Positions 46,081 to 57,491 of a stretch of 64,000 nt of DNA are shown piece after piece. The DNA is taken from NCBI GenBank assembly GCA_964354815.1, contig CAYHBG010000001.1, positions 10,803 through 74,802 on the forward strand, written 5' to 3'. Position numbers and translations under genes: made by a program. The notes beneath the pieces were generated by a model. It was not told the DNA's origin, searched no databases, and was given only the letters and a program-made list of their open reading frames with translations. This stretch comes from an uncultured Thermotogae bacterium (GTDB lineage: Bacteria; Bipolaricaulota; Bipolaricaulia; UBA7950; UBA9294). Each line of letters starts with the position of its first letter. The stretch's first letter is position 1.

Positions 46081-49000
46081 GCGACTCGCGTGCTCGACAG
46101 CGCCGTGGCGTAAATCGCTACTTCGTCGTAGTCACCCCTGAAGAAGTCAGCGGGGAAGTAGTACATATTGCTGTCGGCCCATGTGAGCCCGGTCTTCGTA
46201 TCTCCCTGCACGCCATCGACGTAGATGGTGAAATCGGACGCCGCCTTGACACAGACAATGTGATGCCAGTTGGTGTCGGTGATGGCCTGAGAGGACAGCG
46301 CGCCAGAACCAGAATGCCCATGAGGCCAGAACCGAATCCGATCATCCCCCTCGATTTCGATAATCGGCGCGTCGTCAGCCGTCTGGTTGAGTAGGTACTC
46401 CTCGGCCCCCGAGCGGGTTCTCTTGAACCACATCTCGATGGATTGCGGGTTGTTCCCGAACTTGAGAACAGCCGGAGCAGGATCGATACGAAGCCTACCG
46501 TTGTTGTTCGCGCCGGTATTCAGCGCGGTGTTCGAATCGCCAACAATGGCACCCGTGATACCGAACAACGGGTCGGTCGGCCCCGGCAACTCCCCTGTGC
46601 CATACCACGTCGCCGTGACGGCACCCATCTCATCGACAGGTGGGTTGGCCTTACTTGCCTCGCCCAGCCGCCAGTACGCGACAGGTGAGTCTCCGAGAAC
46701 CAGCCCGTGATAGGGCTGCATGGTCTTCTTGAGGACGGCGTTCGCCGTCAGGGACCCGGCCTGGGCCCGCTTCAAGACCGCATCGGCCTTGGTGGACCCG
46801 GTGATCGTCTGGGCGGTCACGGCCAGCACGGCGTCGGCAGAGAGCGACCCCGCCTGTGTCCGCTTCAGAACGGCGTCAGACGAGAATGTCCCGCCGGTCG
46901 GCGGCGTACCGATGTAGGAGTCGAGGGTGATCCCGCCGGAAGACTCGCTGTAGAGCTCGAAGCCCCACACGTCGAGGCCGGCGTAGTTCACAGTCGCAAC
47001 GCTGACGATGCGGTAGTAGCGGAAGGACGCTGCGTCCCACGAGAACTCGGTGACGCTGTGGTCGGCGTGGTAGTAGCCGTAGTTGCCCGAGGAATGAACG
47101 GACCTGTGGTTGGTGTGATCTGCCGGACCAGCCAGGGTGGTGTATGAGCTGAAGGCGGAGTCGCTCGAGCCGTCGATCCTCAGGGCACCCGTGAGGGTGG
47201 TTTCCGTGACCGCAGAGGCGTCCAGCATTGCCCCGACGGTGGACTTGGCAGACCCCAGATCGAAGTACATGTCGATCCGGTTGCCGAGCTGAACCTTGGT
47301 GTTAGGGTCCTCGTCCACGATGGCGGCCGGGTCCCCGACGACAAGGCCGTCAGTCGAGTGGTAGGCGTAGGGGACGAGCCGGTAGACGAGGTTGGCCTTG
47401 CCCTTGGTCACCCGCCCGATGCCGATCCAGGCATCGACGGTGAAGGACCCCGGAGCCCGGATCGTGAGGTCGTCAAGGTACGTCCAGGAGAAAGGTTCTG
47501 CCGACCCGGCGTGGGTGGTGACGATGCCGACGTTCCCCGGTCGCTGGAGGGACGCCTCGGAGTCCTCGACGGAGAGGTTCCAGCCTGCCGGCTCAGAGCC
47601 CCCCGTGGCCCAGTACTTCACCTTCAGGACGGTTGGGTTGACCCCCTGCACCCTGACCCGCATGTAGAAGGGGGCCGTGGGCCAGCCGTTCGTATCCTCC
47701 GCGATGCTGGTGGGACCGCTGTAGAGGCCGTCAGTCCACTTGCCGATGGTGGGGTTGTAGATGCTGAAGCTGGGGTTCGAGCCGATGACATAGGAGGCGT
47801 TGGGGCGGTAGAAGGAGCCGCTGAAGGATCCAGACGTGTAGTACATGTACTGCCAGGCCTGGATGCGCGAGGCGAACCAGAACGCGCTGTCCCAGCCCGC
47901 TGTGTTGACGGTGACCAGAAACTCCACGTCCTGAGGCCGGTACTGGCCTCCCGTGTCGCTCTGGATGTAGGTCATCTCCTTGGGCTGGGTATAGCCACCC
48001 GACGCGAGGTAGAGGGTGTTGCTCGAGATCGTGGAATAGCCGCCGTAGGCGTTGTGGGGGGTGCGCCACTTCACGCCGATGGTGTCAGGGGTCCGACCCT
48101 CGAGGTAGGTCCCGTCCGTCCCCGCGAACGTGTCCCAGGTGATCAGCTTGTAGCCGGTGCCCTTCTCGATGGCCGCGCCGACCGTGAACGAGCTGCTGAC
48201 ACCCGTCTTCTTGATGACGGCGTTGGTGGTGAAGAACGGTTGGATCCAGGCGTTGAGACGGAAGTACCTCTCCTGGATCACGGCCCCAGCCGCGAAGCCC
48301 AGGAACTCCAGCCCCGTAGCGGAGAAGGTGGCCGACGCGTGTGTCCCCTGGATGCCCTTCAGGACGTGGTAGGGGACGAGGTTCCAGCCGGAGTCCCCGC
48401 CGTAGACCTCGAGCGATGGGTAGGCGGTGACCAGCCCCAGCCCGCCACCGTTGCCGGTCGAGGTGCCTACGTCGTAGATCTCGGTGAGCTTGTTGTCGAG
48501 GTAGCCGCTGCTGGTGGCGTTGATCGGTGTCCAGGCGCTGAAGCGTGGTAGATCGCTATCAACCGGGTCGGAGAAGGCGTAGAGCAGGAGGGCGTTCTGC
48601 CAGCAATGCTCTTCGTGATCGAGGTCGGCGGTTGCGAGCGACGAGACGGTGGCAACGCTCGTATCGCTGAAGTTCCACGCCCCAGCGATGAAGTTGAGAC
48701 CCATCTCCGAGGAGTCGCCTCCGCCCGTGTTCTGGGCGTTGTAGGTGGGTCCACCCACGCCACCGAACGCCAGGATCACGCCGTAGACGTGGTTGGCGGC
48801 GGGACTGAACGAGATGGCGGCCGATGACTCCGTGCCGCCGTGCGTCCCCTTGCGGGTCGCATAGATCGCGATGGCCGTCTCGGTCGTGAGGACGCCGGTC
48901 CCCGTAGAACTCTGGATACCGATGACATACCAGGGGTAGCCGTTGGTGACGAGGTCCGTGGACGCGGTGAAGTCGTTCATCCCAGCGCACTCGATGAACG

Positions 49001-49850
49001 CGACCAGGAGATCGCCGTCGTTCGAGGCGGGGATGGTCATCGTCAGGCTGCTGGTGCCCGACGCTGCCGTGCCCAAGGAGCGGACGAACGGCCTGCCACC
49101 GTACTGGGTCCTCTTGATGACCGCGTCAACCTTGAACGTGGGCACGGCGCGCACGCCGAAGAGGACGCTCGCCACGCGTTCTGCGGCAGACAGGGTGGCC
49201 GTGACCGTGATGGTCTGTCCCGAGGCAACACCGGTCGAGGCGACCCGGTAGATCAGGTCCGCAGCCATGTCGTTGCCGGTCGTGGACGACAGGTGTGTGG
49301 CCGGGTACTCGACGACGTTCGCGCCCCACGACGGACCGCCAGAGATCGCGGTCGTGGCGCGAGTGAAGGTGGCGCTGTCGTCGGCGACACCCGTCAGGGC
49401 GAAGACGAGCTGGTTGATGTTGATGAAGCCCGTCGTCGTGAGGGTGTGGGACATCGCCGTGCTGCCCATCGCCTGCTCGACGGAGTTGGCGAGCTTCGCG
49501 ATGTCCCAGCCTTCGGTCGCGGCCTTCTGGAGGACGATGATGACCGAGCCTGCGGGGGTGATCGCGCCCGAGCGGGTCAGGGTCGGGTTGTTCGTCTCCG
49601 ATGCGCCGAGGATCTTCCAGGCGACATAGACGCGGGATGAACCAACGCCGATGCCGTTCGCCGTTGACCCCGGCGTCTCGTCGATGATCTCCGTCCACGA
49701 CTGGTCGATGGTCGCGGTGACGCTGTACGGCCTCCAGGCCGCGACGAGGATGCCGAGGTCACCGGCCGAGTAGCCGCCGGGGATCGTGGTCGCGACGTTC
49801 TGGGTGGTGGTGGCAGCCCAGGTTCCTGCGGCGCGAACGGAGATCGCCAT
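41982..49850 (-). CDS. giant 2622-aa fibrous repeat protein with LamG/concanavalin-A-like lectin domain
   Basis: Single ORF; N-terminal ~900 aa globular; LamG-like segment ...NWHHIVCVKAASDFTIYVDGVQGDTKTG...FRGDYDEVAIYATALSSTRVAAHY (nt ~46090-46730); C-terminal ~1350 aa are ~80 degenerate 16-17-aa repeats (GSFTANAVLKRTQA-like). Confidence 0.7.
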   Translation of the reverse strand: MAISVRAAGTWAATTTQNVATTIPGGYSAGDLGILVAAWRPYSVTATIDQSWTEIIDETPGSTANGIGVGSSRVYVAWKILGASETNNPTLTRSGAITPAGSVIIVLQKAATEGWDIAKLANSVEQAMGSTAMSHTLTTTGFININQLVFALTGVADDSATFTRATTAISGGPSWGANVVEYPATHLSSTTGNDMAADLIYRVASTGVASGQTITVTATLSAAERVASVLFGVRAVPTFKVDAVIKRTQYGGRPFVRSLGTAASGTSSLTMTIPASNDGDLLVAFIECAGMNDFTASTDLVTNGYPWYVIGIQSSTGTGVLTTETAIAIYATRKGTHGGTESSAAISFSPAANHVYGVILAFGGVGGPTYNAQNTGGGDSSEMGLNFIAGAWNFSDTSVATVSSLATADLDHEEHCWQNALLLYAFSDPVDSDLPRFSAWTPINATSSGYLDNKLTEIYDVGTSTGNGGGLGLVTAYPSLEVYGGDSGWNLVPYHVLKGIQGTHASATFSATGLEFLGFAAGAVIQERYFRLNAWIQPFFTTNAVIKKTGVSSSFTVGAAIEKGTGYKLITWDTFAGTDGTYLEGRTPDTIGVKWRTPHNAYGGYSTISSNTLYLASGGYTQPKEMTYIQSDTGGQYRPQDVEFLVTVNTAGWDSAFWFASRIQAWQYMYYTSGSFSGSFYRPNASYVIGSNPSFSIYNPTIGKWTDGLYSGPTSIAEDTNGWPTAPFYMRVRVQGVNPTVLKVKYWATGGSEPAGWNLSVEDSEASLQRPGNVGIVTTHAGSAEPFSWTYLDDLTIRAPGSFTVDAWIGIGRVTKGKANLVYRLVPYAYHSTDGLVVGDPAAIVDEDPNTKVQLGNRIDMYFDLGSAKSTVGAMLDASAVTETTLTGALRIDGSSDSAFSSYTTLAGPADHTNHRSVHSSGNYGYYHADHSVTEFSWDAASFRYYRIVSVATVNYAGLDVWGFELYSESSGGITLDSYIGTPPTGGTFSSDAVLKRTQAGSLSADAVLAVTAQTITGSTKADAVLKRAQAGSLTANAVLKKTMQPYHGLVLGDSPVAYWRLGEASKANPPVDEMGAVTATWYGTGELPGPTDPLFGITGAIVGDSNTALNTGANNNGRLRIDPAPAVLKFGNNPQSIEMWFKRTRSGAEEYLLNQTADDAPIIEIEGDDRIRFWPHGHSGSGALSSQAITDTNWHHIVCVKAASDFTIYVDGVQGDTKTGLTWADSNMYYFPADFFRGDYDEVAIYATALSSTRVAAHYITGKGGIVGLTADAILRKTQSGSFTADAIRRTTASGAFTANAVIKRTVSSALTANAVLKRTQAGSLTANAVLKGTRTGTFTAAAVVKATVTASTLKADSILKRTTSGSTTANAVIKATSSTKTFTADAVRKATISSSLTANAVVKGTATSSTTANAVLKATRSGTFTADAVRKATLSSTFTASAWIQKTYASSTTANAVVKATAAGSTKADAVVRRTQAGTFTAAALVKATAAGSFTAAAVVQRPASSSFAAAAWVQKTVASTFTAAAVVKGTASSGLTANAVLKRGQAGSFTAAALVKASTTASLTANAVVRTTRNGSLTASSWLQKPVSGTFSASACIKATVSGSLTANAVIRSSASGTFTAAALVKASASGSTTANAVIKRSQAGTFTAAAWIQKTNAGTFTAAATLKATRSGSFTASALIYGATAGTFGVSAVLKRTQAASFTASATLLRSSTGSTTASAWLIRVPTGTFSANAVIKGSASGATTLYALVKATATSATSANAVVKGTVSRTFTADAVFKAPRTGAFTTAAWIQKTNTGSLTANAVLKVSASGFWQTNATILAPRASSTVAYAILRGTRSGTAWTADAAVLGHLAGSFTVAALVGETTAGSFTANAVIKRTVSSALTVNAVIRGTAAGSFTAAAISKRTATGTFFAGAVLAKGQSNTFAVASVLRSTASSSAAADAVIRSSASFTFSAAAVKRDSAASTFSMDAIIRSAAIFTFTSDAVLARNVAFTFNVAALVRTSKTYSFSVDAVVRRSTASSFTSSAIISRNVAATLAASAVIRSSSQTFFTASATVGRTSISGLSADAVIRSETAHSFPVGAWLSGTFTVGSWLAGAISVDAFIRAGRAGFFNLDAWIAGPVYASVTLDAALLRTQASAPVTLDALFLATASSTFAANAVIRSSASSAFTTDAVIRSAAVSSLSADAVIRSSAVGLLRIDSAIMSSRASAFSLSAMVVSSATSSFAADASILRPVQASFASDSIVLKPTLTSFGVAALVAGAGTSAFSADAVVRGTASSHVQADAVIHRTAPASLTTDAIIAHQGAGVLTVSALVEASVGGSFTTEAWIVAPVAEGGSFTTDAILLRHNSGTVAADAVISFQSVSTFSAAAWIFGANAGAFAADAVVKRTRSVTVSVDAILRRTYPGGFGAAAVLKTAQQAGFTTQAVVAATRMGGFATDAVSLSPQTSSFPAAAEIVVGAVTGSFPVAAVITGSPSSAFDAAATILASSVGTLTADASISSSPVSSFTLDALITGFGAVSFTLDAVIGSAGTGTFGIDASISLRITVEIEGTFSAATLAPDLWAGTIEGDHTAATIAPALSARTLDFTWLFTRRNYFRTGAWIAGTFTLDAEIA

Positions 49851-49990: not shown

Positions 49991-50491
49991 TCAGCGACCC
50001 TCAAGCATCCTCGACGCGATGGTGTCCACGTCGTCTCCCCCGCAGATTACTCCGTTGGGCAAGAGCCAGAGGCGCTCGTACCGCTCGGTCTGGGTGACGA
50101 CCCTCTTGGGCTTGCGGCCCTTCGTCATGTGCCACCTGGCGGGGACCTTCTTCCCGATCCCCACCGCCATGATCTCGGATCCTGCCATCAGGTTGCCGAC
50201 GTGGTGCTTCACGAAGTAGCCCTGCTCGCCCTCCTCGAGGACGAGGCAGACGATGGGCCGGCCGCTGGCCTTGTGGTGCAGCCACCACGTTCCCGGCGAC
50301 CGCATCAGCTCCTTGTGCTTCTCGATCCAGCCAGGCTCGTCGAGGTCGATCCCGACGTTGCCCGTGGCGGAGTCGGTCTCGATGACGAGGAAGAAGGGGC
50401 TGTCGCCCTCCCATCCCGGCTGGGTCTCGACGGTCAGGGTCTCGACGGCCGTCTCGTCAAGGCGGACGGCGGTGCCTTCGATCACTTCCAC
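49991..50491 (-). CDS. hypothetical protein (166 aa)
   Basis: Complete ORF between the GT2 gene and the giant gene; no motif recognised. Confidence 0.4.
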   Translation of the reverse strand: MEVIEGTAVRLDETAVETLTVETQPGWEGDSPFFLVIETDSATGNVGIDLDEPGWIEKHKELMRSPGTWWLHHKASGRPIVCLVLEEGEQGYFVKHHVGNLMAGSEIMAVGIGKKVPARWHMTKGRKPKRVVTQTERYERLWLLPNGVICGGDDVDTIASRMLEGR

Positions 50492-51348
50492 CCGAGCTTC
50501 TCCAGGGCCTCTTCGCGGGTCAGGATCTCCTGGTCGATCTCCGCCAGGACGGCTGCCCGGAACTCGCTGGCCTGCGGATCGCGGAACGCGATCTCGCGCA
50601 GGAAGGTCGCCTCCGTGATGGCCTGCTCACCTACGTGGGCGATCTTCACGGACGTGTCCACGAAGATCCGGCAGCCGGCGGCGACGGCCTCGCGGCAGAA
50701 CAGGAAGTCCTCGCCCCACTCCTCCTCCCAGCGGAAGAACGGTGCCGGGCGCTGCTTCTGGCGCTCCTCGAAGGTCCCGAAGGACTCCTTGGCCTGCGCC
50801 TGGAGGATGCGGTCGAAGACCCTCTTGTGGACGAGGCAGAAGGCCATGCCCGTGGCATCCACCTCAACGGCGGAGTCCTCGGGCCACTTCTCCATGTAGG
50901 TGTAGCCGTGGGCACCGTGGGGGGCGAGCTTGTACATCGTCGGCTGGTAGGGATCGCCACGCTGGAAGCAGAGGCCGCCCAGGATGTCGAGGTCGAACTT
51001 CTCGCGAGTCTCGACCAGCACCCTGACGGCCTCAGGCTGCCAGGCCATGTCGGAGTCGATGAACAGGATCCAGTCCCCCTCCATCTCGTTGATGCAGGAG
51101 TTGCGCTGGAAGGTCAGGACGTTGCCGACGATGATGAACTTCTTGATGTACTGGCCGGGCTTGAGGTACGTCGTGTCGGTCATCATCAGCGAGACCGCCG
51201 TCGGGGCGGCGATCTTGTCCCGCGTGATCATGGCGATGGTGCCTACGCACTCGCTCTTGCCGGCCTCGACGATCTCGAACTTCTCCATCTCGAGACCGTC
51301 CGTGACCCCGGCCCGCCTGGGGTGGCGGGCCTTAGGCTGGGTGGTCAT
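50482..51348 (-). CDS. glycosyltransferase family 2 (GT-A fold)
   Basis: DxD motif in LFIDSDMAWQPEAV; GT-A type N-terminal Rossmann region; 288 aa. Confidence 0.65.
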   Translation of the reverse strand: MTTQPKARHPRRAGVTDGLEMEKFEIVEAGKSECVGTIAMITRDKIAAPTAVSLMMTDTTYLKPGQYIKKFIIVGNVLTFQRNSCINEMEGDWILFIDSDMAWQPEAVRVLVETREKFDLDILGGLCFQRGDPYQPTMYKLAPHGAHGYTYMEKWPEDSAVEVDATGMAFCLVHKRVFDRILQAQAKESFGTFEERQKQRPAPFFRWEEEWGEDFLFCREAVAAGCRIFVDTSVKIAHVGEQAITEATFLREIAFRDPQASEFRAAVLAEIDQEILTREEALEKLGWK

Positions 51349-51687
51349 CTACGCGACGACGATGGTCGCGGGGTCGAGGACGGCGGACTCGGAGAGGGGA
51401 TTGGTCACGTCGTAGAGCTGGACGGTCCAGGTGCCGGCGGACGGGAAGATGTACGAGTTGAACTGGAACGCGCCGTCCGGCGTGGTGCCGAAGACCTGGC
51501 TCTGCCCCTGGGTCGCGCCGAGAACCGTCATCCTCAGGACGTAACGCTTCTCGGGAGAGGTCGGGTAGAGGAGCGGATCGTAGCTCCCCGTGTCGTTGGG
51601 GTCGGTGCCTGCGATGGCGAAGGTGCAGACATCCTTCTTGGCGGTGATGGCCCCCGAGGCGGGGGTGACGGTGATCGTTGCGGCCAT
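51349..51687 (-). CDS. small Ig-like/beta-sandwich protein (112 aa)
   Basis: MAATITVTPASGAIT...TWTVQLYDVTNPLSE; ATG 51687 in ATGA overlap; sits between two GT2 genes. Confidence 0.35.
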   Translation of the reverse strand: MAATITVTPASGAITAKKDVCTFAIAGTDPNDTGSYDPLLYPTSPEKRYVLRMTVLGATQGQSQVFGTTPDGAFQFNSYIFPSAGTWTVQLYDVTNPLSESAVLDPATIVVA

Positions 51688-52493
51688 CAGGTGGACTCCT
51701 TCTCGAGGGTGAACTCGGATCGACTGTACGGGATCACGACCCGCTCCGACATGGTCAAGCCCAGCACGTTGACGGGCTTTCGGCACGGGCACTCCTCGCA
51801 CACGTCGAAGTCGTGACCGTTGACCGTCTGGCGAACCATCCGATGCTCTTCCATGATCTCCCCGCGAGCTCGGGAGGGGAAGAGGTCCACTTCAGGGTGC
51901 CAGGCGAATGGTGGCTCGTGGACGAACGACCGGAAGTCGTTCCCGACCCCCAGCCGACGCCCGAGTTGCTGGTCCTCGGACCCGTGGTGTCCGAGGTAGG
52001 CGAGGTCGAACCCGCCGACCTTCCAGAAGAGGTTCCGGCGGATCGCCAGCAGGCCAGCGTAGCTGCTCTGCCAGCCGTGCCAGGTGTTGACGGCGGTCTC
52101 CCTCGAGCGTCCCACGAAGGAGGGAAGTTCGAGCAGTTTCTCCCGCCCGTAGCGGGCGAAGTCGATGAAGCGGTGATGGCCCCAGCAGAAGTCATCCTTC
52201 AGCGCGATGCGAGTCGCCTCCTCCAGCATCTCCCTCGGGGCGATGAGATCGTCGTCGAGGAAGACGAGGACATCGGAGGTTGCCACGTCGGCTCCGATGT
52301 TCCGGCGAAGCCCGGCATCACCGTGTCCAATGGGCTGCGTGTCGCTGGCGAAGCGGACAAGAGTCACACCCTCGACAGCCACCTCGTTGCTGACCACCAC
52401 GACCTCGTCAGGCTTCAGCGTGCCTTGACCCAGGCTCCAGACGAGATCGTCCACCGTCGATCTCGTGGTCGGCACGATGACGGAGGTGGTCAT
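51687..52493 (-). CDS. glycosyltransferase family 2 (GT-A fold)
   Basis: VIVPT...N N-terminal and VLVFLDDDLI DxD motif; 268 aa. Confidence 0.6.
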   Translation of the reverse strand: MTTSVIVPTTRSTVDDLVWSLGQGTLKPDEVVVVSNEVAVEGVTLVRFASDTQPIGHGDAGLRRNIGADVATSDVLVFLDDDLIAPREMLEEATRIALKDDFCWGHHRFIDFARYGREKLLELPSFVGRSRETAVNTWHGWQSSYAGLLAIRRNLFWKVGGFDLAYLGHHGSEDQQLGRRLGVGNDFRSFVHEPPFAWHPEVDLFPSRARGEIMEEHRMVRQTVNGHDFDVCEECPCRKPVNVLGLTMSERVVIPYSRSEFTLEKEST

Positions 52494-53152
52494 GACGCGA
52501 GGATGAGCTCGGACCTGGCCCGGAACAGGGCCTCGTCCTGGTCCCAGCCCTTCTGGACATCGCGGTAGGTCGAGTCCCAGGGGAGCGAGTTGGAAGACCC
52601 GAACAGGGGATGGAGATGCTCCACGATGGACTCCATCGCCCTCGCGATCTCACCACGCCGGAGAGCCGTGAGGAACATCTCGTTGTCGGCGAAGTTGTGG
52701 GCGTAGCCGGGGTGGAACGCGAGGCCGGGGGCGTCGAACACCGCCCGCTCGAGATACTCCCGGCGGATCAGCGCCTGGGTCCCGTTGGCGTTGTGGAGAT
52801 CGTTCACGACCACGACCGAGGGACCCGCGTCCATCACCCGCAGCGCGGACGTGAGCCAGCCGGCATGGTGGATCACGTCGTCAGAACCGAAGAAGATCGT
52901 CTTCGCGTCGTCGAGCCAGCGCACCAGCTTGTTCATGCGGGTGACGTAGCGGCGGTCGTCGCAGTCGCTGTCATCGACGTACCACTCCCCCAGCTCGTCC
53001 AGGATCGTCATGGACTCGGGGTCGCTGACCATGAACAGGATGAAGTGGGACTCGGGCGTGTTCTGGTGGATGTTGGAAACCACGTCCCGGATCCGCTGGG
53101 GACGGTCGAGGGAGGGCACCAGGATGGCGCAGGGGAGGAGGTCAGAGATCAC
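52490..53152 (-). CDS. GT-A-like glycosyltransferase (third paralog-type, 220 aa)
   Basis: ILVPSLDRP N-terminal beta-strand-Asp pattern and FFGSDDV DxD-like motif. Confidence 0.45.
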   Translation of the reverse strand: MISDLLPCAILVPSLDRPQRIRDVVSNIHQNTPESHFILFMVSDPESMTILDELGEWYVDDSDCDDRRYVTRMNKLVRWLDDAKTIFFGSDDVIHHAGWLTSALRVMDAGPSVVVVNDLHNANGTQALIRREYLERAVFDAPGLAFHPGYAHNFADNEMFLTALRRGEIARAMESIVEHLHPLFGSSNSLPWDSTYRDVQKGWDQDEALFRARSELILAS

Positions 53153-53969
53153 GGAACGTCTCCGACTCGCGCCAGAAGACCCTCGGCTCCCAGCCTGGCA
53201 CGTTGTTGTGGCCGACGTAGCTCCGGGAGTCGCCGTACCGCTCGGGACCGTGGACGTAGTCGAGATCCAGGTAGTTCGCCATGTCGTTGACGGTCACCAC
53301 GTTGGCCGATCCGCCACCCACGTCCCAGGTCTGGGTCGCGTAGAGCTTCGGGTCCGACATCTGGAGCAGCAACAGGTTGACGTAGTCGCTGACGTGGAGG
53401 AGGTCGCGGCGCTGGAGACCATCGCCGTTGACGACGACCTCCTTCCCCTCCTTCTTCGCCTGGAGGAACCAGGCGATCCAGCCTGACTCGAACGACCCGG
53501 CCTGTCCCGGACCGTAGATGGTGCCAGGGCGGTTGATGACCAGCGGGAACTCGAAGCTGCGGGACATCTCGAGGCACCAGGTCTCGACCATCTGCTTAGC
53601 CGCTCCGTAGGGCGTCATCCCGTCGCGGGCCTTCACCGAGCTGGTGAGGAGCAGCGGGATGTCGAGGCTGGCTGCCACCTGGGCGACCGTGACCGCAGAC
53701 ATCACCGTGTCGCGGAACGTGTCGTAGGGCCGGCTGATGCTGCCCAGCGTCGAGCAGGACCCTGCGAGGTGGATGATGAGGTCCGGCTCCTTGATGGTGA
53801 GTTGCCCGGCGGACCATCTCGAGGCCAGGTCCATCCCGGTCGTCTTGTCAGCGGAGATGACCCCGATCCCGCGATCCTTCAGCGCCTTGACGGTGTGCCG
53901 GCCGACGAACCCGTCGGACCCGGTGACGAGAACCCTCACTTCCTCACCATCCAGAAGCTCCCCGGCCAA
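53142..53969 (-). CDS. NAD-dependent epimerase/dehydratase (extended SDR)
   Basis: VLVTGSDGFVG (GxxGxxG) and YGAAK (YxxxK); TTG start per ORF track; 275 aa. Confidence 0.65.
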   Translation of the reverse strand: MAGELLDGEEVRVLVTGSDGFVGRHTVKALKDRGIGVISADKTTGMDLASRWSAGQLTIKEPDLIIHLAGSCSTLGSISRPYDTFRDTVMSAVTVAQVAASLDIPLLLTSSVKARDGMTPYGAAKQMVETWCLEMSRSFEFPLVINRPGTIYGPGQAGSFESGWIAWFLQAKKEGKEVVVNGDGLQRRDLLHVSDYVNLLLLQMSDPKLYATQTWDVGGGSANVVTVNDMANYLDLDYVHGPERYGDSRSYVGHNNVPGWEPRVFWRESETFRDL

Positions 53970-54577
53970 CGCTGGGGGGTGAACGACGGGAACACCTTCA
54001 ACTCCTCACGGGACGCCTGGTGACTCGACCACAACACCTCCCACGACCCGGTGTCGAGGGCTTGCTGGAGGTGGTCCTGTTCATCGTAGCCACGGTCGCT
54101 CCACGTTTCCGGGTAGGGATCGGGGAGGAAGATGTCGTGGACGTGGACGACGACACCAGGGCGCAGCGTCGGCAGGATCTCGTGGTACAGGATGTCCACG
54201 TCGTTCCCGGCAGCCCACTTGTGGCTGGAGTCGATGAACAGGATGTCCCCCTCGACGAGCCAGTCGAACAGCTCCCGTGGGGCATCCTCGAGACGTACCC
54301 GGCGGTGATCGACAACGGGATCGAGGGTCGTCCTCGGGTCTGGGTCGATGGCAACCAGCGTGCCTCCGTAACCGTCCCGGAGGTTGGACCGCATGGCCGC
54401 GAGCGAGACTGCGGTGGAGTGACCGGCCCCGACCTCGATGATCCTGCCGGGGTGGTACTTGATCACCATCGCGTACAGGACCTCGGCATCGACCGACCCG
54501 AACCAGGTGTTCTCGATGTCGTATCCGATGCCCTCGAAGCCCTCCTGCCACCTGGCAAGGTTCGCGGCGGTGATCAT
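53936..54577 (-). CDS. class I SAM-dependent methyltransferase (TylF/macrocin-O-methyltransferase-like sugar O-MTase)
   Basis: EVGAGHST motif I, LFIDSSHKW motif; 213 aa; ATGA overlap with the upstream epimerase. Confidence 0.6.
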   Translation of the reverse strand: MITAANLARWQEGFEGIGYDIENTWFGSVDAEVLYAMVIKYHPGRIIEVGAGHSTAVSLAAMRSNLRDGYGGTLVAIDPDPRTTLDPVVDHRRVRLEDAPRELFDWLVEGDILFIDSSHKWAAGNDVDILYHEILPTLRPGVVVHVHDIFLPDPYPETWSDRGYDEQDHLQQALDTGSWEVLWSSHQASREELKVFPSFTPQRWPGSFWMVRK

Positions 54578-55479
54578 CCGAGGTAGGACTTGTAGTAGGC
54601 CACGGTGTTCGCCACACCCATCTCGAGGGGCAGGAGCTCCCAGTCCCCGATCAGGGGCTTCAGGGTCTCGGGGTTGCCCACGACGACGGACTTCTCGTCC
54701 TCGCCGGCACGCATCGGGAGGTGGGTGATCTCCACCGCCCGGTTGGTCACCTTCGTCACCTCGTCGGCCACGATGGCGGCGATGTCGTTGACGGTCGTCC
54801 TCCGGCCCGTCCCGGCCTCTGCCGTCGCCTGCGGACCGCCGATGGTCTCCTCGAGGGCCGCCACGAGGATGTGGGCCACGTCGGTGACGTAGATCATGTC
54901 CATGATCTGGGAGCCGTCGCCGTAGATCTCGATGGGCATCCCGGTCAGGGCGCGGCAGATGAAGCTGGGCATGATCTTGCGGACCTTGGACGGACCGAAC
55001 GGCTCTGCGGCAACCTGGCGGGGACCGTAGGCGTTCAGCGCCCGGACCACCGACATCCTGCTGTGGCGGAAGCGGACGTGCATGTCCACGAACCGCTCGA
55101 TGGTGTTCTTGGTGATCGAGTAGGTGTTGTTCATCCAGTAGTTGCCGACGGCGATGTTGACCAGCGGCACGTCGTACTGGGCGCAGGCCTCGAGGACGTT
55201 CAGGCCCCCCAGGATGTTCGTCTCAGCCGCCGGCCGAGGGTTCTTGACCGTCTCCTGAGTGCCGAGGACGCCAGCCAGGTGGATGACTCCATCGGCATGG
55301 GCGACAGCCTCGGTGACGGCGGTTGCATCACGGACATCTCCAAGAACGAGCTGCGCTCCTGCTGCTGGCTCCCGGTAGCGGGTGTCGAGGACGGCGGGCG
55401 AGTATCCAAGGTGGGAGAGCTCCTCCACGACGTAGCGGCCGATGAACCCGTTGCCACCTGTGACTAGGACTGTCTTCAC
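54574..55479 (-). CDS. NAD-dependent epimerase/dehydratase (UDP-sugar 4-epimerase or 4,6-dehydratase type)
   Basis: VLVTGGNGFIGRY (GxxGxxG), YSITK (YxxxK); 301 aa; first gene of the glycan block downstream of the terminator. Confidence 0.7.
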   Translation of the reverse strand: MKTVLVTGGNGFIGRYVVEELSHLGYSPAVLDTRYREPAAGAQLVLGDVRDATAVTEAVAHADGVIHLAGVLGTQETVKNPRPAAETNILGGLNVLEACAQYDVPLVNIAVGNYWMNNTYSITKNTIERFVDMHVRFRHSRMSVVRALNAYGPRQVAAEPFGPSKVRKIMPSFICRALTGMPIEIYGDGSQIMDMIYVTDVAHILVAALEETIGGPQATAEAGTGRRTTVNDIAAIVADEVTKVTNRAVEITHLPMRAGEDEKSVVVGNPETLKPLIGDWELLPLEMGVANTVAYYKSYLG

Positions 55480-55519
55480 GATCCCTCCCGAGGATGAGGA
55501 GTGCGGGCGGGGACCTGGG

Positions 55520-55552
55520 GGAAGCCCCCGCCCGAGTGGAAGGCTACGCCTC
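55520..55552 (-). terminator. hairpin gggcgggg-N12-ccccgccc downstream of the Thr-rich small gene
   Basis: 8-bp GC inverted repeat in the 64-nt gap between 55544 and 55479. Confidence 0.4.
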
Positions 55553-56035
55553 GTCGTAGCTGTAGTTGACGGTCTGCTGGGTCCAGTTGCCCGGTCCAGC
55601 AGTCGCGCCCACAGCGAGCTGCATCACGAGGTACTTGGTGTACGAGCCGGTCTGGGCGGCCGTGTACTGGGCGTTGTCCCAGACCGCCTTCGCGCCGGAC
55701 GTGTAGCTCGTCGCCACCGCGTTGGCGATGGTGGAGGTGGCCGTGGTGCCCTGCTGGTACGTCACATAGGCCCCGGTGAAGTTCAGCGTGGTGGACGTGT
55801 CCACGGTGCTGTTGAACCACACCTTGAAGCTCTGGACGTAGTTCGCGGGGGTCGCGGTGATCTTGAGCCGGATCCACTTCTCGTAGGAGTTGGTGCCGAC
55901 CGTGATCGGGTTGGCCTGGCGGTTCGCCAGGCTGTTGGTGCTGTTGTCGGCCGAGATCAGGTCCACGCCGGTCACGGAGTCCGTGACGGTGGGGCCTGCC
56001 CCGTAGGAGACAGCGACAACGAGGGTTGCGGCCAT
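55544..56035 (-). CDS. Thr/Ser-rich beta-type structural protein (163 aa), candidate decoration protein or glycosylation substrate
   Basis: ATG 56035 with AGGAG RBS; about 25% Thr+Ser; immediately downstream of portal and upstream of the glycan enzyme genes; followed by a terminator hairpin. Confidence 0.45.
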   Translation of the reverse strand: MAATLVVAVSYGAGPTVTDSVTGVDLISADNSTNSLANRQANPITVGTNSYEKWIRLKITATPANYVQSFKVWFNSTVDTSTTLNFTGAYVTYQQGTTATSTIANAVATSYTSGAKAVWDNAQYTAAQTGSYTKYLVMQLAVGATAGPGNWTQQTVNYSYDEA

Positions 56036-56084: not shown

Positions 56085-57491
56085 CTAGGACCGCTCGATC
56101 AGGCCCTTGGCGATGTCGTCCCGGCGCTCCATGTACCCCCTCACGAGGGCCTCAAGCTCGGGCGACATGTCCTTGGTGCTGCTGGCGGGCTTCGACTGTC
56201 CAGCCGCCGGAGCGGGCGGAGGAGTGGCGACCTCCTTGGCGGAGAGAACGTCATCGACGGTCACGACGCCGAGGGGAGTGTTCGCCATGAGCTTGTTGTA
56301 CGGGTTGTTCTCGTCGTTGGGGTCCCCCAGCGGAGGCCGACCCTCGTCCATCCGGGCCTCGTTGACTGGCTTCCAAGGCATGCCTGCGAGCGCCAACTTG
56401 TTGATGTTGGCCTTGGACATGGACTCCTTGATGTTCAGCCGCGTGAACCTGAAGGCGAGGTTGTTGCGGTTCCCTCCGTAGGCGTCGTCCCAGACGATCT
56501 CCCGTGTGAAGTAGTCCTGCACGAGCGCCAGAAGTGGCCGGAGACCCTGGTCCTCGGTCATCTCGAGCTGACTCTCAGCGGTGGCCCGGTTGATGTCCAT
56601 CGTGATGCCCAGGTCCTGCGGTGAGATCAGGTAGACCGCGCAGATCTTGAGGACGAGGTACTTGAGCCACTCCTGGTACTGCATCTCTCGGTTGCTGCCA
56701 CGGAACGGGACGAACTTCGCCCCCTTCGTGCCACCGATGAAGGCCATCGCCCCCTTGCCGGCCACCTCGTACTGCCAGTACGACTTGAAGCCCTCGACCT
56801 GTTCCGGCCGAGCGCCCTCGCCCAGGTCAAGCATCCCGTCGGGGGCAGCGTTGGTGACCTGGCGGGTGTTGTACTGGGAGCCGGTCAGCTCCGCGTCCAC
56901 GGTCATCTTGAGGGTCTCGAGGGGAGACAGGCCGACGACCGAGTACGTCCTGGGGTTCGCCATGATGTAGACGATGTCCTCGTTCTTGAACGGGACCTCG
57001 TAGGTGGGGGTGGGGACCCAGAAGTAGCGTGGCTCGTCAGGATCACCGTCCCACAGGGAGTTGACCTTGATCTTGGCCCCGTCCACCGCGTGGAGGGCGG
57101 CCAGGCTGCCGCCGAGGGTGCGCTCCTTCTCGATGCTGCCGGCGTCGAGGACCAGGATGTCCTCCACGATGGGTTCGACCCAGGAACGGAAGGACTCCAC
57201 CGCCGGATTGGGGCGGATGAACAGGTCGCGGAGCTCCTCCTGCATCGCCTCGTTGAAGGGCTTCGCCTGGTCGAAGGGGACGATGTCCCACTCCGCCGAG
57301 GAGACCTGGGCCTTGCGGACGTTGATCGCGGCCCGGATCCACTCCGAGTGCTCGGCCCAGTTGCGGAACAGGGCACTCGAGCTCTTGCCGACCTTCCCCC
57401 GCTCCTGGAAGACCAGGTTGGCGCTCCCCGGCGGGAGGTTCTTGGGGCTGGTCTTGTAGGACCACGTCAGGAGGTTGGAGATCAGGCCCAT
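56085..57491 (-). CDS. portal protein
   Basis: 468 aa directly downstream of TerL (with a 71-aa gene between them); typical portal size and position; ATG 57491. Confidence 0.75.
   Translation of the reverse strand: MGLISNLLTWSYKTSPKNLPPGSANLVFQERGKVGKSSSALFRNWAEHSEWIRAAINVRKAQVSSAEWDIVPFDQAKPFNEAMQEELRDLFIRPNPAVESFRSWVEPIVEDILVLDAGSIEKERTLGGSLAALHAVDGAKIKVNSLWDGDPDEPRYFWVPTPTYEVPFKNEDIVYIMANPRTYSVVGLSPLETLKMTVDAELTGSQYNTRQVTNAAPDGMLDLGEGARPEQVEGFKSYWQYEVAGKGAMAFIGGTKGAKFVPFRGSNREMQYQEWLKYLVLKICAVYLISPQDLGITMDINRATAESQLEMTEDQGLRPLLALVQDYFTREIVWDDAYGGNRNNLAFRFTRLNIKESMSKANINKLALAGMPWKPVNEARMDEGRPPLGDPNDENNPYNKLMANTPLGVVTVDDVLSAKEVATPPPAPAAGQSKPASSTKDMSPELEALVRGYMERRDDIAKGLIERS

What the first reader, a model, noticed from the sequence alone, without database searches (positions are those of the whole stretch)
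50482..56035. Sugar-modification and glycosyltransferase cassette inserted between portal and prohead-protease genes
On one strand, with overlapping stops and starts, and immediately after the portal gene, lie:
- two NAD-dependent epimerase/dehydratases (GxxGxxG, YxxxK);
- a TylF-like SAM O-methyltransferase;
- three GT-A/GT2 glycosyltransferases (DxD);
- a small Ig-like protein.
A GT4 (40010..41278) lies just before the protease gene and a MurG-like GT (16765..17574) lies among the tail fibre genes. Virion glycosylation by one or two phage GTs is known in a few actinophages. A full nucleotide-sugar modification and methylation pathway inside the head module is much more elaborate. It suggests the phage builds its own methylated glycan on a virion component.
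Basis: partly seen in the sequence, partly recalled or inferred. Interest (0 to 1): 0.8.

Follow-up and report, generated by a model that had tools for sequence, protein, structure and literature searches.

The report
Swappable glycan genes in phage head-module
An uncultivated high-GC tailed phage carries sugar-modifying, methylating and sugar-transferring enzymes between its portal and head-protease genes, most likely to coat a virion protein with its own glycan; this layout is already known from mycobacteriophage Corndog, but here the enzyme set is larger and is exchanged wholesale between close relatives.

Summary
On the minus strand, after the portal gene, lie:
- two extended-SDR nucleotide-sugar enzymes;
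- a class-I SAM methyltransferase;
- three GT-A-type glycosyltransferases;
- two small beta-rich proteins.

Most adjacent genes overlap by 1-11 bases. A GT4 gene overlaps the start of the prohead protease gene.

"TylF-like" is not shown. "MurG-like" has only sub-threshold support.

The layout is not new. Corndog has a methyltransferase and three glycosyltransferases at the same position, and its capsid and tail tube are glycosylated. S-CBS4, phiPsal1 and TJE1 carry similar annotated cassettes.

Comparison with more than 100 metagenomic relatives adds something new. The enzymes between p163 and p113 form a replaceable island, with about 20 gene-content versions among 27 loci and breakpoints at gene boundaries. 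The flanks, GTc288 and GT4 stay conserved.

Most likely this is cytoplasmic glycosylation of a virion protein with a diversifying glycan. The acceptor is unknown. No biochemical evidence exists.

Verdict: new variant of a known kind, moderate interest.

The parts
56085..57491 (-). Portal protein (468 aa); conserved upstream flank of the locus.
   Evidence: Pfam Phage_portal 5e-32 and phrog_2662 1e-49. It is 54-87% identical in 80 IMG/VR loci.
55544..56035 (-). p163: small, 25% Ser/Thr, all-beta protein of unknown function. It is the conserved left border of the variable island. It may be an abundant capsid-associated protein or a glycan acceptor.
   Evidence: No Pfam, PHROG, NCBIfam or PDB match. 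There are 595 homologues, all metagenomic and unnamed. In the closer relatives (portal at least 66% identical) it is 70-91% identical, about as conserved as the portal; in more distant loci it is 50-66% identical. The AlphaFold2 model is all-beta but poor (pLDDT 57), and the fold search gave nothing significant.
55504..55534 (-). 13-bp GC-rich stem-loop directly after the p163 stop codon. It may be an attenuator or an mRNA-stabilising hairpin separating p163 from the enzyme genes.
   Evidence: The 65-nt stretch containing it folds at -33.5 kcal/mol, z = -2.2. Strong hairpins of different sequence occur at the same place in relatives; 17 of 61 fall below the 5th percentile of coding-region controls.
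54574..55479 (-). SDR1: extended-SDR nucleotide-sugar epimerase or reductase-type enzyme (301 aa).
   Evidence: PF01370 1e-38 and phrog_540 2e-54. The nearest structures are 6WJB/6WJ9 and 4ZRM, which are UDP-hexose 4-epimerases. No NCBIfam equivalog reaches its cut-off. GGNGFIG and YSITK are present. The usual catalytic Ser/Thr is not evident, and there is no TDE signature.
53936..54577 (-). Class-I SAM-dependent methyltransferase (213 aa).
   Evidence: Pfam Methyltransf_24 1e-13. There is no single-sequence PDB hit. A family profile weakly matches O-methyltransferase Rv1220c, CmcI and YrrM (E 0.03-0.16). No TylF (PF05711) hit was found.
53142..53939 (-). SDR2: second extended-SDR nucleotide-sugar enzyme (265 aa from the GTG that overlaps the methyltransferase stop codon).
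   Evidence: PF01370 1e-34. The nearest structures are 4ZRM and CDP-tyvelose 2-epimerase 1ORR. GSDGFVG, TSS and YGAAK are present. There is no TDE signature.
52490..53152 (-). GTa220: probable GT-A glycosyltransferase (220 aa).
   Evidence: No Pfam or NCBIfam hit. phrog_14945 'glycosyltransferase' matches at 1e-11. The motif 'FFGSDDV' is invariant in 7 homologues. A family profile finds nothing in PDB.
51687..52493 (-). GTb268: GT2-family glycosyltransferase (268 aa).
   Evidence: Pfam Glycos_transf_2 2e-7 and Glyco_tranf_2_2 6e-8, both above the gathering score. DDD motif present.
51349..51687 (-). p113: 112-aa Ig-like beta-sandwich protein. It is the conserved right border of the variable island.
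   Evidence: AlphaFold2 pLDDT 90.2. Foldseek finds Ig/FN3/MG-type domains with TM 0.5-0.6 and E about 3e-3. There are 63 homologues. It is present even in the minimal relative L074.
50482..51348 (-). GTc288: conserved GT2-family glycosyltransferase (288 aa), outside the variable island.
   Evidence: Glycos_transf_2 2e-6, above the gathering score; phrog_1574 and phrog_34859 also match. It is 39-83% identical and syntenic in relatives.
49991..50491 (-). p166: conserved protein of unknown function that always follows GTc288.
   Evidence: No family hit. It is syntenic in relatives at 31-61% identity.
41982..49850 (-). Giant 2622-aa protein. The N-terminal ~1000 aa are variable. A LamG lectin-type domain follows. 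About 90 tandem 14-aa Ser/Thr/Ala-rich repeats span aa 1270-2560. It is a candidate capsid fibre and candidate O-glycosylation substrate.
   Evidence: Pfam Laminin_G_3 2e-16 at aa 1129-1257 is the only hit. The repeat part is conserved in relatives and the N-terminal part is not. No match in cultured phages.
41297..41659 (-). p120: small basic protein of unknown function.
   Evidence: No family hit. Weakly conserved in L095.
40010..41278 (-). GT4 (GT-B, retaining-type family) glycosyltransferase (422 aa). Its stop codon overlaps the protease start codon. It is conserved across the whole lineage.
   Evidence: Glyco_trans_1_4 3e-17, Glycos_transf_1 1e-13 and phrog_2170 4e-30. EX7E motif present. 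It is 70-82% identical and always directly upstream of the protease gene in most relatives, and 52-58% identical in the distant loci L074 and L106. It is 24-28% identical to the GT4s of TJE1, phiPsal1 and S-CBS4.
38712..40013 (-). Prohead protease fused to a scaffold-like C-terminal part (433 aa); downstream flank.
   Evidence: Peptidase_S78 5e-5 and phrog_80 4e-10.
37375..38706 (-). Major capsid protein.
   Evidence: phrog_752 1e-12. The start codon was set.
16765..17574 (-). Support is weak.
   Evidence: No hit on its own. Only 6 representatives exist among 1.8 billion proteins. The family profile matches the UGT2B and CalG2 C-terminal signature at E about 0.01, and one member matches Glyco_tran_28_C at 0.003.

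Best explanation
The locus is a phage-encoded system that glycosylates a virion protein. It sits in the head-assembly operon of an uncultivated, high-GC, long-tailed phage.

Proposed mechanism (inferred, not shown):
1. Late in infection the genes are transcribed together with the portal, protease and capsid genes.
2. The two SDR enzymes convert host nucleotide-sugars into other sugars by epimerisation or reduction, not by 4,6-dehydration.
3. The conserved GT4 and GTc288, together with the cassette-specific GTa220 and GTb268, add sugars stepwise in the cytoplasm. The acceptor is a Ser/Thr-rich or capsid-associated protein.
4. The methyltransferase caps or decorates a sugar.

Candidate acceptors are the capsid protein, the small beta-sandwich proteins p163 and p113, and the 2622-residue Ser/Thr-rich repeat protein with a lectin domain. 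Which one is used is unknown.

The enzymes between p163 and p113 form a replaceable island. Related phages carry different sets of epimerases, reductases, methyltransferases, acetyltransferases and glycosyltransferases there. The lineage would therefore display different glycans on an otherwise conserved particle.
For: Shown here:
- Enzyme classes were identified by HMM.
- Most adjacent genes overlap by 1-11 bases, and the GT4 stop codon overlaps the protease start codon.
- No protein in the locus has a membrane-spanning segment, and no flippase, polymerase or polyprenyl-phosphate transferase is present.
- The core order portal, p163, [island], p113, GTc288, p166, giant repeat protein, GT4, protease, capsid is kept in IMG/VR and MAG relatives.
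- Distant relatives (portal 34-38% identical) have the protease about 1 kb after the portal. The 16-kb block is therefore an insertion into a standard head module.
- Island content differs in about 20 ways among 27 loci where both flanks are present. Families found include RmlD, RMNT_CmcI rhamnosyl-O-methyltransferase type, GT17-like, hexapeptide acyltransferase and several GT2s and methyltransferases.
- DNA homology breaks exactly at the p163 stop codon and resumes at the p113 start codon. L044 and L045 are 94-98% identical yet differ by one swapped gene.

Precedent:
- Corndog has an O-methyltransferase and three GTs between portal and protease. The enzymes are made in infected cells but are absent from virions (PMC4351075).
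- Capsid and tail-tube glycosylation of Che8, Corndog and Myrna is reported by Freeman 2023, as summarised in PMC12363180 and PMC11256854.
- In chlorovirus PBCV-1, soluble virus-encoded GTs and methyltransferases glycosylate the capsid protein (PMC9614988).
Against: - There is no biochemical or proteomic evidence that any virion protein of this phage carries a glycan.
- The enzymes show no detectable sequence similarity to Corndog gp35-38. The parallel rests on position and enzyme class, not homology.
- The acceptor is unidentified. The p163 model is too poor to interpret. The capsid protein has no obvious Ser/Thr-rich extension.
- The minimal relative L074 keeps the p113-like protein, a GT2 and GT4, but tblastn finds no p163, GTc288, p166 or giant-protein repeats there. 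The giant protein therefore cannot be the only acceptor for GT4.
- Soluble GT2 and GT4 enzymes also act on lipid-linked cell-wall precursors at the inner face of the membrane. Lack of membrane segments therefore does not exclude a host-envelope target.
- Sugar identity cannot be derived: no NCBIfam equivalog reached its cut-off.
- The host is unknown.
Confidence: 0.6

Rival explanations
1. The enzymes remodel a host cell-envelope glycan (cell-wall polysaccharide, teichoic-acid-like polymer or O-chain). This would block superinfection by competing phages or stop progeny from re-adsorbing to lysing cells. The island varies because host surface glycans vary.
For: - Hypervariable islands rich in glycosyltransferases inside the structural regions of pelagimyophages and cyanomyophages have been interpreted this way (PMC7029224).
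- The gene families in the island are those typical of O-antigen and cell-wall polysaccharide loci: SDR epimerases, RmlD, GT2, GT4, methyl- and acetyltransferases.
- Cytoplasmic-face GT2 and GT4 enzymes that act on lipid-linked intermediates are also soluble (established knowledge).
Against: - No initiating polyprenyl-phosphate transferase, flippase, polymerase or GtrA/GtrB-like membrane protein is present, and no membrane segments are predicted.
- The genes sit in the late head operon, and GT4 is translationally coupled to the protease-scaffold gene. That timing suits superinfection exclusion poorly.
- The island is bracketed by conserved small beta-sandwich proteins and a giant repeat protein, not by lysis or early genes.
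Confidence: 0.15
2. The enzymes glycosylate phage DNA, as T-even glucosyltransferases or arabinosyl-hydroxymethylcytosine systems do, to evade restriction.
For: - Phage GTs that modify DNA are the classical case (PMC9614988).
- A variable sugar on DNA could also be under diversifying selection.
- A sub-threshold nucleoside 2-deoxyribosyltransferase-like hit exists at 9265-9741 (E 0.001, below the cut-off).
Against: - No hydroxymethylase or thymidylate-synthase-like enzyme, or other base-hypermodification enzyme, was found among about 30 non-structural ORFs scanned. About 12 kb of the 76.6-kb genome lies outside the window, so this is incomplete.
- The genes are in the head operon, not with the replication genes on the opposite strand (1-13 kb).
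- Four or five GTs plus a methyltransferase is far more than known DNA-sugar systems need.
Confidence: 0.05
3. The cassette is a mobile 'moron' island with no role in the virion. It would be parked at a recombination-tolerant site by homing endonucleases, and it would make a soluble glycoside or modify a host protein.
For: - An HNH_3+HTH endonuclease gene lies directly after p163 in 20 relatives.
- S-CBS4 also has an HNH gene in its cassette.
- Sharp breakpoints at gene boundaries fit cassette mobility.
Against: - GT4, GTc288 and p113 are conserved and syntenic across the lineage, down to 39-58% identity in the most distant loci. That argues for a core function tied to head assembly.
- Every version of the island found encodes glycan-building enzymes rather than random cargo.
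- The window itself has no endonuclease in the locus.
Confidence: 0.08

Closest known systems
Mycobacteriophage Corndog (cluster O) gp35-gp38: an O-methyltransferase and three glycosyltransferases between portal gp34 and protease gp39
   Same: - Same position (portal to protease) and same operon.
- Same enzyme classes: a methyltransferase plus several GT-A-type GTs.
- Corndog's enzymes are made in infected cells but are not packaged (PMC4351075). Its virions are reported to be glycosylated (Freeman 2023 via PMC12363180).
   Different: - No detectable sequence similarity.
- The window adds two nucleotide-sugar SDRs, a GT4 coupled to the protease gene, two small beta-sandwich proteins and a 2622-aa repeat protein.
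- The block is 16 kb here against about 2.8 kb in Corndog.
- The enzyme set here is a swappable island.
Mycobacteriophages Che8 (cluster F1) and Myrna (cluster C2): virion glycosylation
   Same: Phage-encoded GTs glycosylate capsid and tail-tube subunits and shield them from antibodies (as summarised in PMC12363180 and PMC11256854).
   Different: - The F1-cluster phage Maravista, a close relative of Che8, carries its GT genes near the right genome end, not in the head module (PMC11256854).
- No nucleotide-sugar enzymes are described in the summaries available here.
- Those cases are proven experimentally. This one is not.
Annotated cassettes in cultured phages: Synechococcus phage S-CBS4 (gp13-17), Pontimonas phage phiPsal1 (gp10-12) and Tetrasphaera phage TJE1 (orf9-14)
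   Same: - Their GT4s are homologous to the window's GT4 (24-28% identity; E 1e-16 to 5e-26).
- S-CBS4: portal, hypothetical, GT4, GalT, MT, HNH, then protease and capsid.
- phiPsal1: capsid, GT4, MT, GT2, neck.
- TJE1: nucleotidyltransferase, kinase, epimerase, MT, GT, next to the terminase.
   Different: - They are smaller (2-5 enzymes).
- They have no giant repeat protein and no p163 or p113 flanks.
- No functional study was found in the literature searched here.
Chlorovirus PBCV-1 capsid glycosylation (A064R, A061L, A111/114R, GMD and others)
   Same: Soluble, virus-encoded GTs and SAM methyltransferases, plus nucleotide-sugar enzymes, build a methylated glycan on the capsid protein in the cytoplasm. 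Glycan variants define antigenic classes (PMC9614988).
   Different: - It is a eukaryotic giant virus.
- The glycans are N-linked.
- The genes are dispersed and expressed early.
- There is no sequence relationship.
Hypervariable 'host recognition cluster' islands with glycosyltransferases in pelagimyophages and cyanomyophages
   Same: A non-syntenic island rich in LPS-type sugar enzymes lies inside the structural region of otherwise syntenic phage genomes (PMC7029224).
   Different: - Those are T4-like myoviruses.
- Their island is 34-45 kb and mixed with tail fibres.
- It was interpreted as host O-chain modification.
- Here the island is 2-5.5 kb, sits in the head module and has sharply defined conserved borders.
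Bacterial cytoplasmic O-glycosylation of Ser/Thr-rich surface proteins: serine-rich-repeat adhesins with GtfA/GtfB (GT4), and flagellin glycosylation islands (from my own knowledge, plus PMC7591256 listed)
   Same: - A GT4 plus further GTs modify a Ser/Thr-rich repeat protein or filament subunit in the cytoplasm before assembly.
- Flagellin glycosylation islands vary between strains.
- The window's GT4 gives a sub-threshold NCBIfam hit to GtfA (8e-7, far below the cut-off).
   Different: - No accessory Sec system or flagellar genes are present.
- The link between these GTs and the giant repeat protein is only adjacency.

Membership tests
Phage virion-glycosylation cassette of the Corndog type | Glycosyltransferase and methyltransferase genes lie inside the virion structural operon, between the portal and maturation-protease genes. 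| tested here: met
   comparison with PMC4351075 and the Corndog record.
Phage virion-glycosylation cassette of the Corndog type | Sequence homology to the proven enzymes (Corndog gp35-38). | tested here: not met
   BLASTP gives no hit better than E = 0.15. tblastn of GTc288 and GT4 against 50,697 phage records returns no mycobacteriophage.
Phage virion-glycosylation cassette of the Corndog type | Glycans are covalently attached to capsid or tail subunits. | not testable with these tools
   This needs virions, glycoprotein staining and mass spectrometry.
Extended SDR nucleotide-sugar epimerase/dehydratase (PF01370) | HMM score above the gathering score, a GxxGxxG Rossmann motif and a YxxxK catalytic pair. 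| tested here: met
   133 and 120 bits against a cut-off of 20.9. The motifs were read from the translations.
Extended SDR nucleotide-sugar epimerase/dehydratase (PF01370) | 4,6-dehydratase subclass: a Thr-Asp-Glu triad before YxxxK. | tested here: not met
   SDR1 has 'NIAVGN' and SDR2 has 'LTSS' at that position. All dehydratase equivalog models score far below their cut-offs.
Extended SDR nucleotide-sugar epimerase/dehydratase (PF01370) | Assignment to a specific enzyme such as GalE, RmlD or UXS. | tested here: inconclusive
   The best NCBIfam scores are 91 and 44 bits, while the cut-offs of the matched models range from 207 to 1509. The nearest structures are UDP-hexose 4-epimerases and CDP-tyvelose 2-epimerase.
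GT-A fold, GT2 family glycosyltransferase | Pfam GT2 model above the gathering score, plus a DxD motif. | tested here: met
   GTb268 scores 31.4 and 32.9 bits, and GTc288 scores 28.5 bits, against cut-offs of 23.3 and 27.3. DDD and DSD motifs are present.
GT-A fold, GT2 family glycosyltransferase | The same criteria applied to the third enzyme, GTa220. | tested here: inconclusive
   No Pfam, NCBIfam or PDB hit, even with a family profile. Support is only phrog_14945 at 1e-11 and an invariant SDD motif.
GT4 (GT-B, Glycos_transf_1) | Pfam model above the gathering score, plus the EX7E motif. | tested here: met
   Glyco_trans_1_4 scores 63.7 bits against 27, and Glycos_transf_1 scores 51.2 against 26.4. 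'EGFGLTLLE' is present in the translation.
TylF-type macrocin/sugar O-methyltransferase (PF05711) | A match to the TylF model or to TylF/MycF/NovP structures. | tested here: not met
   Only Methyltransf_24 matches at E <= 0.01. PDB profile hits are Rv1220c, CmcI and YrrM at E 0.03-0.16.
MurG / GT28 glycosyltransferase (ORF 16765-17574) | A match to Glyco_transf_28 or Glyco_tran_28_C, or to a GT-B structure. | tested here: inconclusive
   The window protein has no hit. The family profile matches UGT2B7/15/17 and CalG2 over 45-90 residues at E 0.01-0.04. One of 7 members matches Glyco_tran_28_C at 0.003.
Gtr-type / O-antigen serotype-conversion module | Membrane proteins: a GtrA flippase, a GtrB bactoprenol GT with transmembrane helices, and a polytopic type-specific GT. 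| tested here: not met
   Among the enzymes, the highest 19-residue Kyte-Doolittle mean is 1.63, in SDR2. The giant repeat protein reaches 1.81. No flippase or polymerase family was hit.
DNA base glycosylation system (T-even type) | A base hydroxymethylase or other hypermodification enzyme together with a DNA glucosyltransferase. | tested here: inconclusive
   None was found among the ORFs scanned. About 12 kb of the genome lies outside the window and small ORFs were not all scanned.

The most novel reading that the evidence does not exclude
A widespread, so far uncultivated phage lineage carries an O-antigen-like, freely exchangeable glycan-synthesis island inside its head operon. The product would decorate a capsid-borne, mucin-like fibre (the 2622-residue protein with about 90 Ser/Thr-rich 14-residue repeats and a lectin domain), the small beta-sandwich proteins p163 and p113, or both. 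These phages would then exist as glycan 'serotypes' of one conserved particle, under diversifying selection from something that recognises the virion surface.
Probability: 0.25. Interest if true: 0.8.

Novelty: new variant of a known kind. Interest (0 to 1): 0.55.

Why it matters
Phage virion glycosylation was shown experimentally only recently, in three mycobacteriophages. There it changes antibody recognition, which matters for phage therapy.

This locus suggests the trait is widespread in environmental phages:
- p163 has hundreds of metagenomic homologues.
- The locus can include its own sugar-tailoring enzymes.
- The glycan is a rapidly exchanged character, as it is in bacterial O-antigens, capsules and flagellin islands.

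If this is confirmed, it raises a concrete question: what selects for glycan diversity on a virus particle outside an animal host? Candidates include host defences, adsorption to non-host surfaces, grazers, enzymes and particle stability.

It would also provide:
- a natural toolbox of soluble protein-glycosylating enzymes with defined acceptor modules;
- a second puzzle, the giant repeat-plus-lectin protein in the head module, which has no counterpart in cultured phages.

Tried and rejected
- **Near-identical phage.** Megablast of the cassette against 50,697 phage records found nothing. The portal is only about 26% identical to cultured phages.
- **p163 identity.** Pfam, PHROGs, NCBIfam and a PDB profile search gave nothing. 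AlphaFold2 reached only pLDDT 57, and Foldseek gave no hit better than E = 0.02. I draw no conclusion beyond 'all-beta'.
- **p113.** It has a generic Ig-like fold with no specific relative. A resemblance to Wzt carbohydrate-binding domains (TM 0.6) is too weak to use.
- **Host.**
  - There are no tRNAs.
  - A single-sequence portal scan of GTDB genomes found nothing.
  - The profile scan found only MAG contigs: one binned as Lysinibacter and one as Patescibacteria. These are binning-level hints only.
  - I therefore do not adopt 'actinophage'.
- **Giant protein.** It has no match in cultured phages. The idea that it forms a beta-spiral or beta-helix fibre is untested speculation.
- **Sugar identity.** NCBIfam equivalogs all fall far below their cut-offs, so I name no sugar.
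- **Freeman 2023.** The paper is not held. I used only what citing papers state.
- **Shared 'MSPELEAL' motif.** The portal C-terminus and capsid N-terminus share this motif in the window. The relatives with a portal region that I checked (L051, L061, L045, L119) lack it. L095 and L093 keep it at the capsid N-terminus. I dropped it.
- **Giant protein as sole acceptor.** I rejected this because tblastn finds none of its repeats in relative L074, which still keeps GT4, a GT2 and the p113-like protein.

Full report
**What the window is.** The window has 65-70% G+C. It encodes a tailed-phage genome with two arms. Replication and recombination genes lie on the plus strand at 1-13 kb: a PD-(D/E)XK nuclease, ERF, an AEP primase, a DnaB-like ATPase, an HNH endonuclease and a TROVE-domain protein. 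A long structural operon lies on the minus strand from about 59 kb down to about 13 kb. It runs TerL, portal, the locus in question, protease-scaffold, capsid protein, connector and tail genes, and a 3191-residue tape measure. The exact p163 protein is on record on a 76,653-bp NCBI contig and in two Logan runs. No cultured phage is close. The cassette gives no megablast hit among 50,697 phage records, and the portal is only about 26% identical to any of them.

**Checking the observation.**
- p163 (55544-56035).
- SDR1 (54574-55479), PF01370 at 1e-38.
- A class-I SAM methyltransferase (53936-54577), Methyltransf_24 at 1e-13.
- SDR2 (53142-53939), PF01370 at 1e-34.
- GTa220 (52490-53152), supported only by PHROG 14945 at 1e-11 and an invariant SDD motif.
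- GTb268 (51687-52493), GT2 above the gathering score.
- p113 (51349-51687).
- GTc288 (50482-51348), GT2 above the gathering score.

From SDR1 to p166, adjacent genes overlap or abut by 0-11 bases. The p113 start was corrected to the ATG at 51687, read from the translation. The GT4 at 40010-41278 is solid (Glyco_trans_1_4 3e-17; EX7E motif), and its stop codon overlaps the protease start codon.

'Ig-like' is supported at fold level for p113. An AlphaFold2 model built on 53 homologues has pLDDT 90 and is a seven-strand beta-sandwich. Its best matches are Ig, FN3 and macroglobulin domains at TM 0.5-0.6.

Two labels are not borne out:
- 'TylF-like'. Only Methyltransf_24 matches. A family profile gives weak PDB hits to cation-dependent O-methyltransferases and CmcI.
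- 'MurG-like' for 16765-17574. The protein has no hit on its own and only six relatives among 1.8 billion representatives. A profile of these matches the C-terminal donor-binding signature of GT1 enzymes (UGT2B, CalG2) at E about 0.01. One member hits Glyco_tran_28_C at 0.003. This is suggestive but below threshold.

The portal-to-protease gap is 16 kb, not 5.5 kb. After GTc288 come:
- p166 (49991-50491);
- a 2622-residue ORF (41982-49850);
- p120 (41297-41659);
- GT4.

The giant protein's only Pfam hit is a Laminin_G_3 (concanavalin-like lectin) domain at residues 1129-1257. Residues 1270-2560 consist of about 90 tandem 14-residue units with the consensus [FL]-T-[AT]-[DN]-A-[VI]-[VIL]-K-[RA]-T-x-x-G-S. 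These are 25-33% Ser+Thr, and isolated copies punctuate the N-terminal domains. It has no match in cultured phages.

**Relatives.** A portal-based scan of IMG/VR returned 80 loci at 54-87% identity. A capsid-based scan gave 29 more. GTDB genomes yielded seven MAG contigs.

tblastn mapping shows a conserved scaffold: TerL, portal, p163, [variable stretch], p113, GTc288, p166, giant repeat protein, (p120), GT4, protease, capsid protein, p305, p240.
- In the closer relatives (portal at least 66% identical) p163 is 70-91% identical, about as conserved as the portal. It drops to 50-66% in more distant loci.
- GT4 is 70-82% identical and always abuts the protease gene in most loci. It is 52-58% identical in the distant loci L074 and L106.
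- The repeat part of the giant protein is conserved. Its first ~1000 residues are not.
- Contigs whose portal is only 34-38% identical have the protease about 1 kb after the portal.
- One intermediate relative, L074 (portal 56%), has a minimal version: portal, hexapeptide acyltransferase, ORF, GT2, ORF, p113-like protein, ORF, GT4, protease. tblastn finds no p163, GTc288, p166 or giant-protein repeats there.

**The variable island.** I called ORFs between p163 and p113 in every locus and clustered them. This gave 35 families, 20 of them recurrent. Among the 27 loci where both flanks are present there are about 20 different gene-content strings. Only L061 has the window's order; L025 has it plus an extra methyltransferase.

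Pfam scans of representatives found:
- further SDR epimerases;
- an RmlD-type reductase (5e-64);
- RMNT_CmcI rhamnosyl-O-methyltransferase-type enzymes (8e-30);
- Methyltransf_11/24/25 enzymes;
- several GT2s;
- a GT17-like enzyme (8e-17);
- hexapeptide acyltransferases (7e-25 and 8e-31);
- an HNH_3+HTH endonuclease directly after p163 in 20 loci.

At the DNA level, homology between the window and L006 or L014 stops at the p163 stop codon and resumes at the p113 start codon. L044 and L045 are 94-98% identical on both sides, yet differ by one swapped gene. The closest portal relatives of the window (86-87%) carry different islands. The same-island relative L061 has a portal that is 84% identical. 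The island is therefore exchanged independently of the core genome.

A 13-bp GC hairpin follows the p163 stop codon. Hairpins of different sequence recur at that site in relatives. This fits a highly expressed p163 followed by enzyme genes expressed at a lower level.

**Mechanism.**

What is shown:
- the enzyme classes;
- the coupling to the head operon;
- the absence of membrane segments and of lipid-carrier machinery;
- the conservation of GT4, GTc288 and p113;
- the modular replacement of the remaining enzymes.

What follows from established knowledge of these families:
- Extended SDRs act on nucleotide-sugars.
- Neither SDR here has the Thr-Asp-Glu triad of 4,6-dehydratases. Their nearest solved relatives are UDP-hexose 4-epimerases and CDP-tyvelose 2-epimerase.
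- They therefore most likely epimerise or reduce host nucleotide-sugars.
- GT-A and GT-B enzymes then transfer sugars, and the methyltransferase modifies a sugar.

What is inferred: the acceptor is a virion protein modified in the cytoplasm during head assembly. The basis is position, plus precedent:
- Corndog carries an O-methyltransferase and three glycosyltransferases between portal and protease. They are made in infected cells but are not packaged (PMC4351075).
[quoted passage not shown] This is from Freeman 2023, which is not held here, as summarised in PMC12363180 and PMC11256854.

I put this explanation at 0.6. The acceptor is open. The giant Ser/Thr-rich repeat protein is the most eye-catching candidate. 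L074, however, shows that GT4 and p113 persist without it.

**Rivals.**
- Host-envelope remodelling (0.15). This is how similar glycosyltransferase-rich hypervariable islands in pelagimyophages were read (PMC7029224). It is disfavoured by the lack of any membrane or lipid-carrier component and by the late head-operon context. It is not excluded, because soluble GTs also act on lipid-linked precursors.
- DNA glycosylation (0.05). There is no accompanying base-modification enzyme among the ORFs scanned, and it does not fit the genomic context.
- A functionless mobile moron island (0.08). This is contradicted by the conserved GT4, GTc288 and p113 core and by the uniformly glycan-related content of every island version.

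**Comparison with what is known.**
- By position and enzyme class, this works like the Corndog cassette. It is not a sequence relative of it.
- Its GT4 is homologous (24-28% identity) to GT4s in annotated but unstudied cassettes of three cultured phages:
  - S-CBS4: portal, hypothetical, GT4, GalT, MT, HNH, then protease.
  - phiPsal1: capsid, GT4, MT, GT2.
  - TJE1: nucleotidyltransferase, epimerase, MT, GT, next to the terminase.
- Functionally it parallels chlorovirus PBCV-1. There, soluble viral GTs, methyltransferases and nucleotide-sugar enzymes build a methylated capsid glycan, and variants of that glycan define antigenic classes (PMC9614988).

**Novelty.** The core claim, a sugar and methyl cassette between portal and protease, is therefore not new. 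As far as I could find, three things are new:
1. The scale of the locus: five or six transferases, two sugar-tailoring enzymes, two beta-sandwich proteins and a giant repeat/lectin protein.
2. The demonstration that the tailoring part is a sharply bounded, frequently exchanged island in a widespread environmental lineage.
3. The association with an unprecedented 2622-residue repeat protein.

**Verdict.** This is a new variant of a known kind. Interest is 0.55. It would rise to about 0.8 if virion glycan 'serotypes', or a glycosylated giant capsid fibre, were demonstrated.

Noticed in passing
window 41982-49850 (-): A 2622-aa ORF lies in the head module. It has about 90 tandem 14-residue Ser/Thr/Ala-rich repeats (aa 1270-2560) and a LamG lectin-type domain (aa 1129-1257). 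Its N-terminal ~1000 aa differ between relatives, while the repeat part is conserved. Nothing similar was found in cultured phages.
   Followed up: partly
window 55504-55534 (-); same position in L005, L029, L033, L057, L061, L079 and others: A strong GC-rich hairpin follows the p163 stop codon directly. The 65-nt stretch containing it folds at -33.5 kcal/mol. Hairpins of unrelated sequence recur at that site in relatives (17 of 61 below the 5th percentile of coding controls). It may be an attenuator between an abundant protein and the enzyme genes.
   Followed up: partly
L045:11863-12450 and 19 other IMG/VR loci, directly after p163: An HNH_3 endonuclease with an N-terminal HTH occupies the first slot of the variable island in 20 relatives. 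It is absent from the window. S-CBS4 also has an HNH gene inside its cassette. It may drive island exchange.
   Followed up: partly
L044 vs L045 (L044:11592-12204 against L045:13322-14093): Two contigs are 94-98% identical on both sides yet differ by a single swapped gene: a GT2 against an unknown 258-aa protein. This looks like recent single-gene replacement inside the island.
   Followed up: partly
window 16765-17574 (-): This ORF among the tail genes belongs to a family with only 6 representatives among 1.8 billion proteins. The conserved motif 'VVVGGAGxGxLYEALWAGKPLVA...EQ..R...A..AGEA' resembles the GT1/GT28 donor-binding signature (E about 0.01).
   Followed up: yes
window 23454-33029 (-): A tape-measure-sized ORF of 3191 aa implies an unusually long tail.
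   Followed up: no
window 10562-12160 (+): A 532-aa protein with a TROVE (Ro60-like) domain (Pfam 7e-14) lies on the replication arm.
   Followed up: no
window 56085-56170 (portal C-terminus) and 38680-38706 (capsid N-terminus): The portal C-terminus and the capsid protein N-terminus share the motif 'MSPELEAL(V/L)(R/K)G'. The relatives with a portal region that I checked (L051, L061, L045, L119) lack it. L095 and L093 keep it at the capsid N-terminus.
   Followed up: partly
L048/L051 and L108/L112 (IMGVR_UViG_3300028802_000007, 131 kb): One IMG/VR contig carries two portal and capsid gene sets about 65 kb apart. It may be a concatemer or two related genomes joined in assembly.
   Followed up: no
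L119 (JBBAQX010000021.1, 71 kb, MAG labelled Lysinibacter sp.) and L120 (MAG labelled Patescibacteria): Phage-sized or partial contigs with the same portal, p163, p113, GTc288, p166 architecture are binned into bacterial MAGs. In L119 the giant repeat protein follows as well. This is the only, and weak, host hint. No integrated copy was found in GTDB genomes.
   Followed up: partly
window 9265-9741 (+): A sub-threshold match to nucleoside 2-deoxyribosyltransferase (E 0.001, 19.5 bits against a cut-off of 28.8).
   Followed up: no
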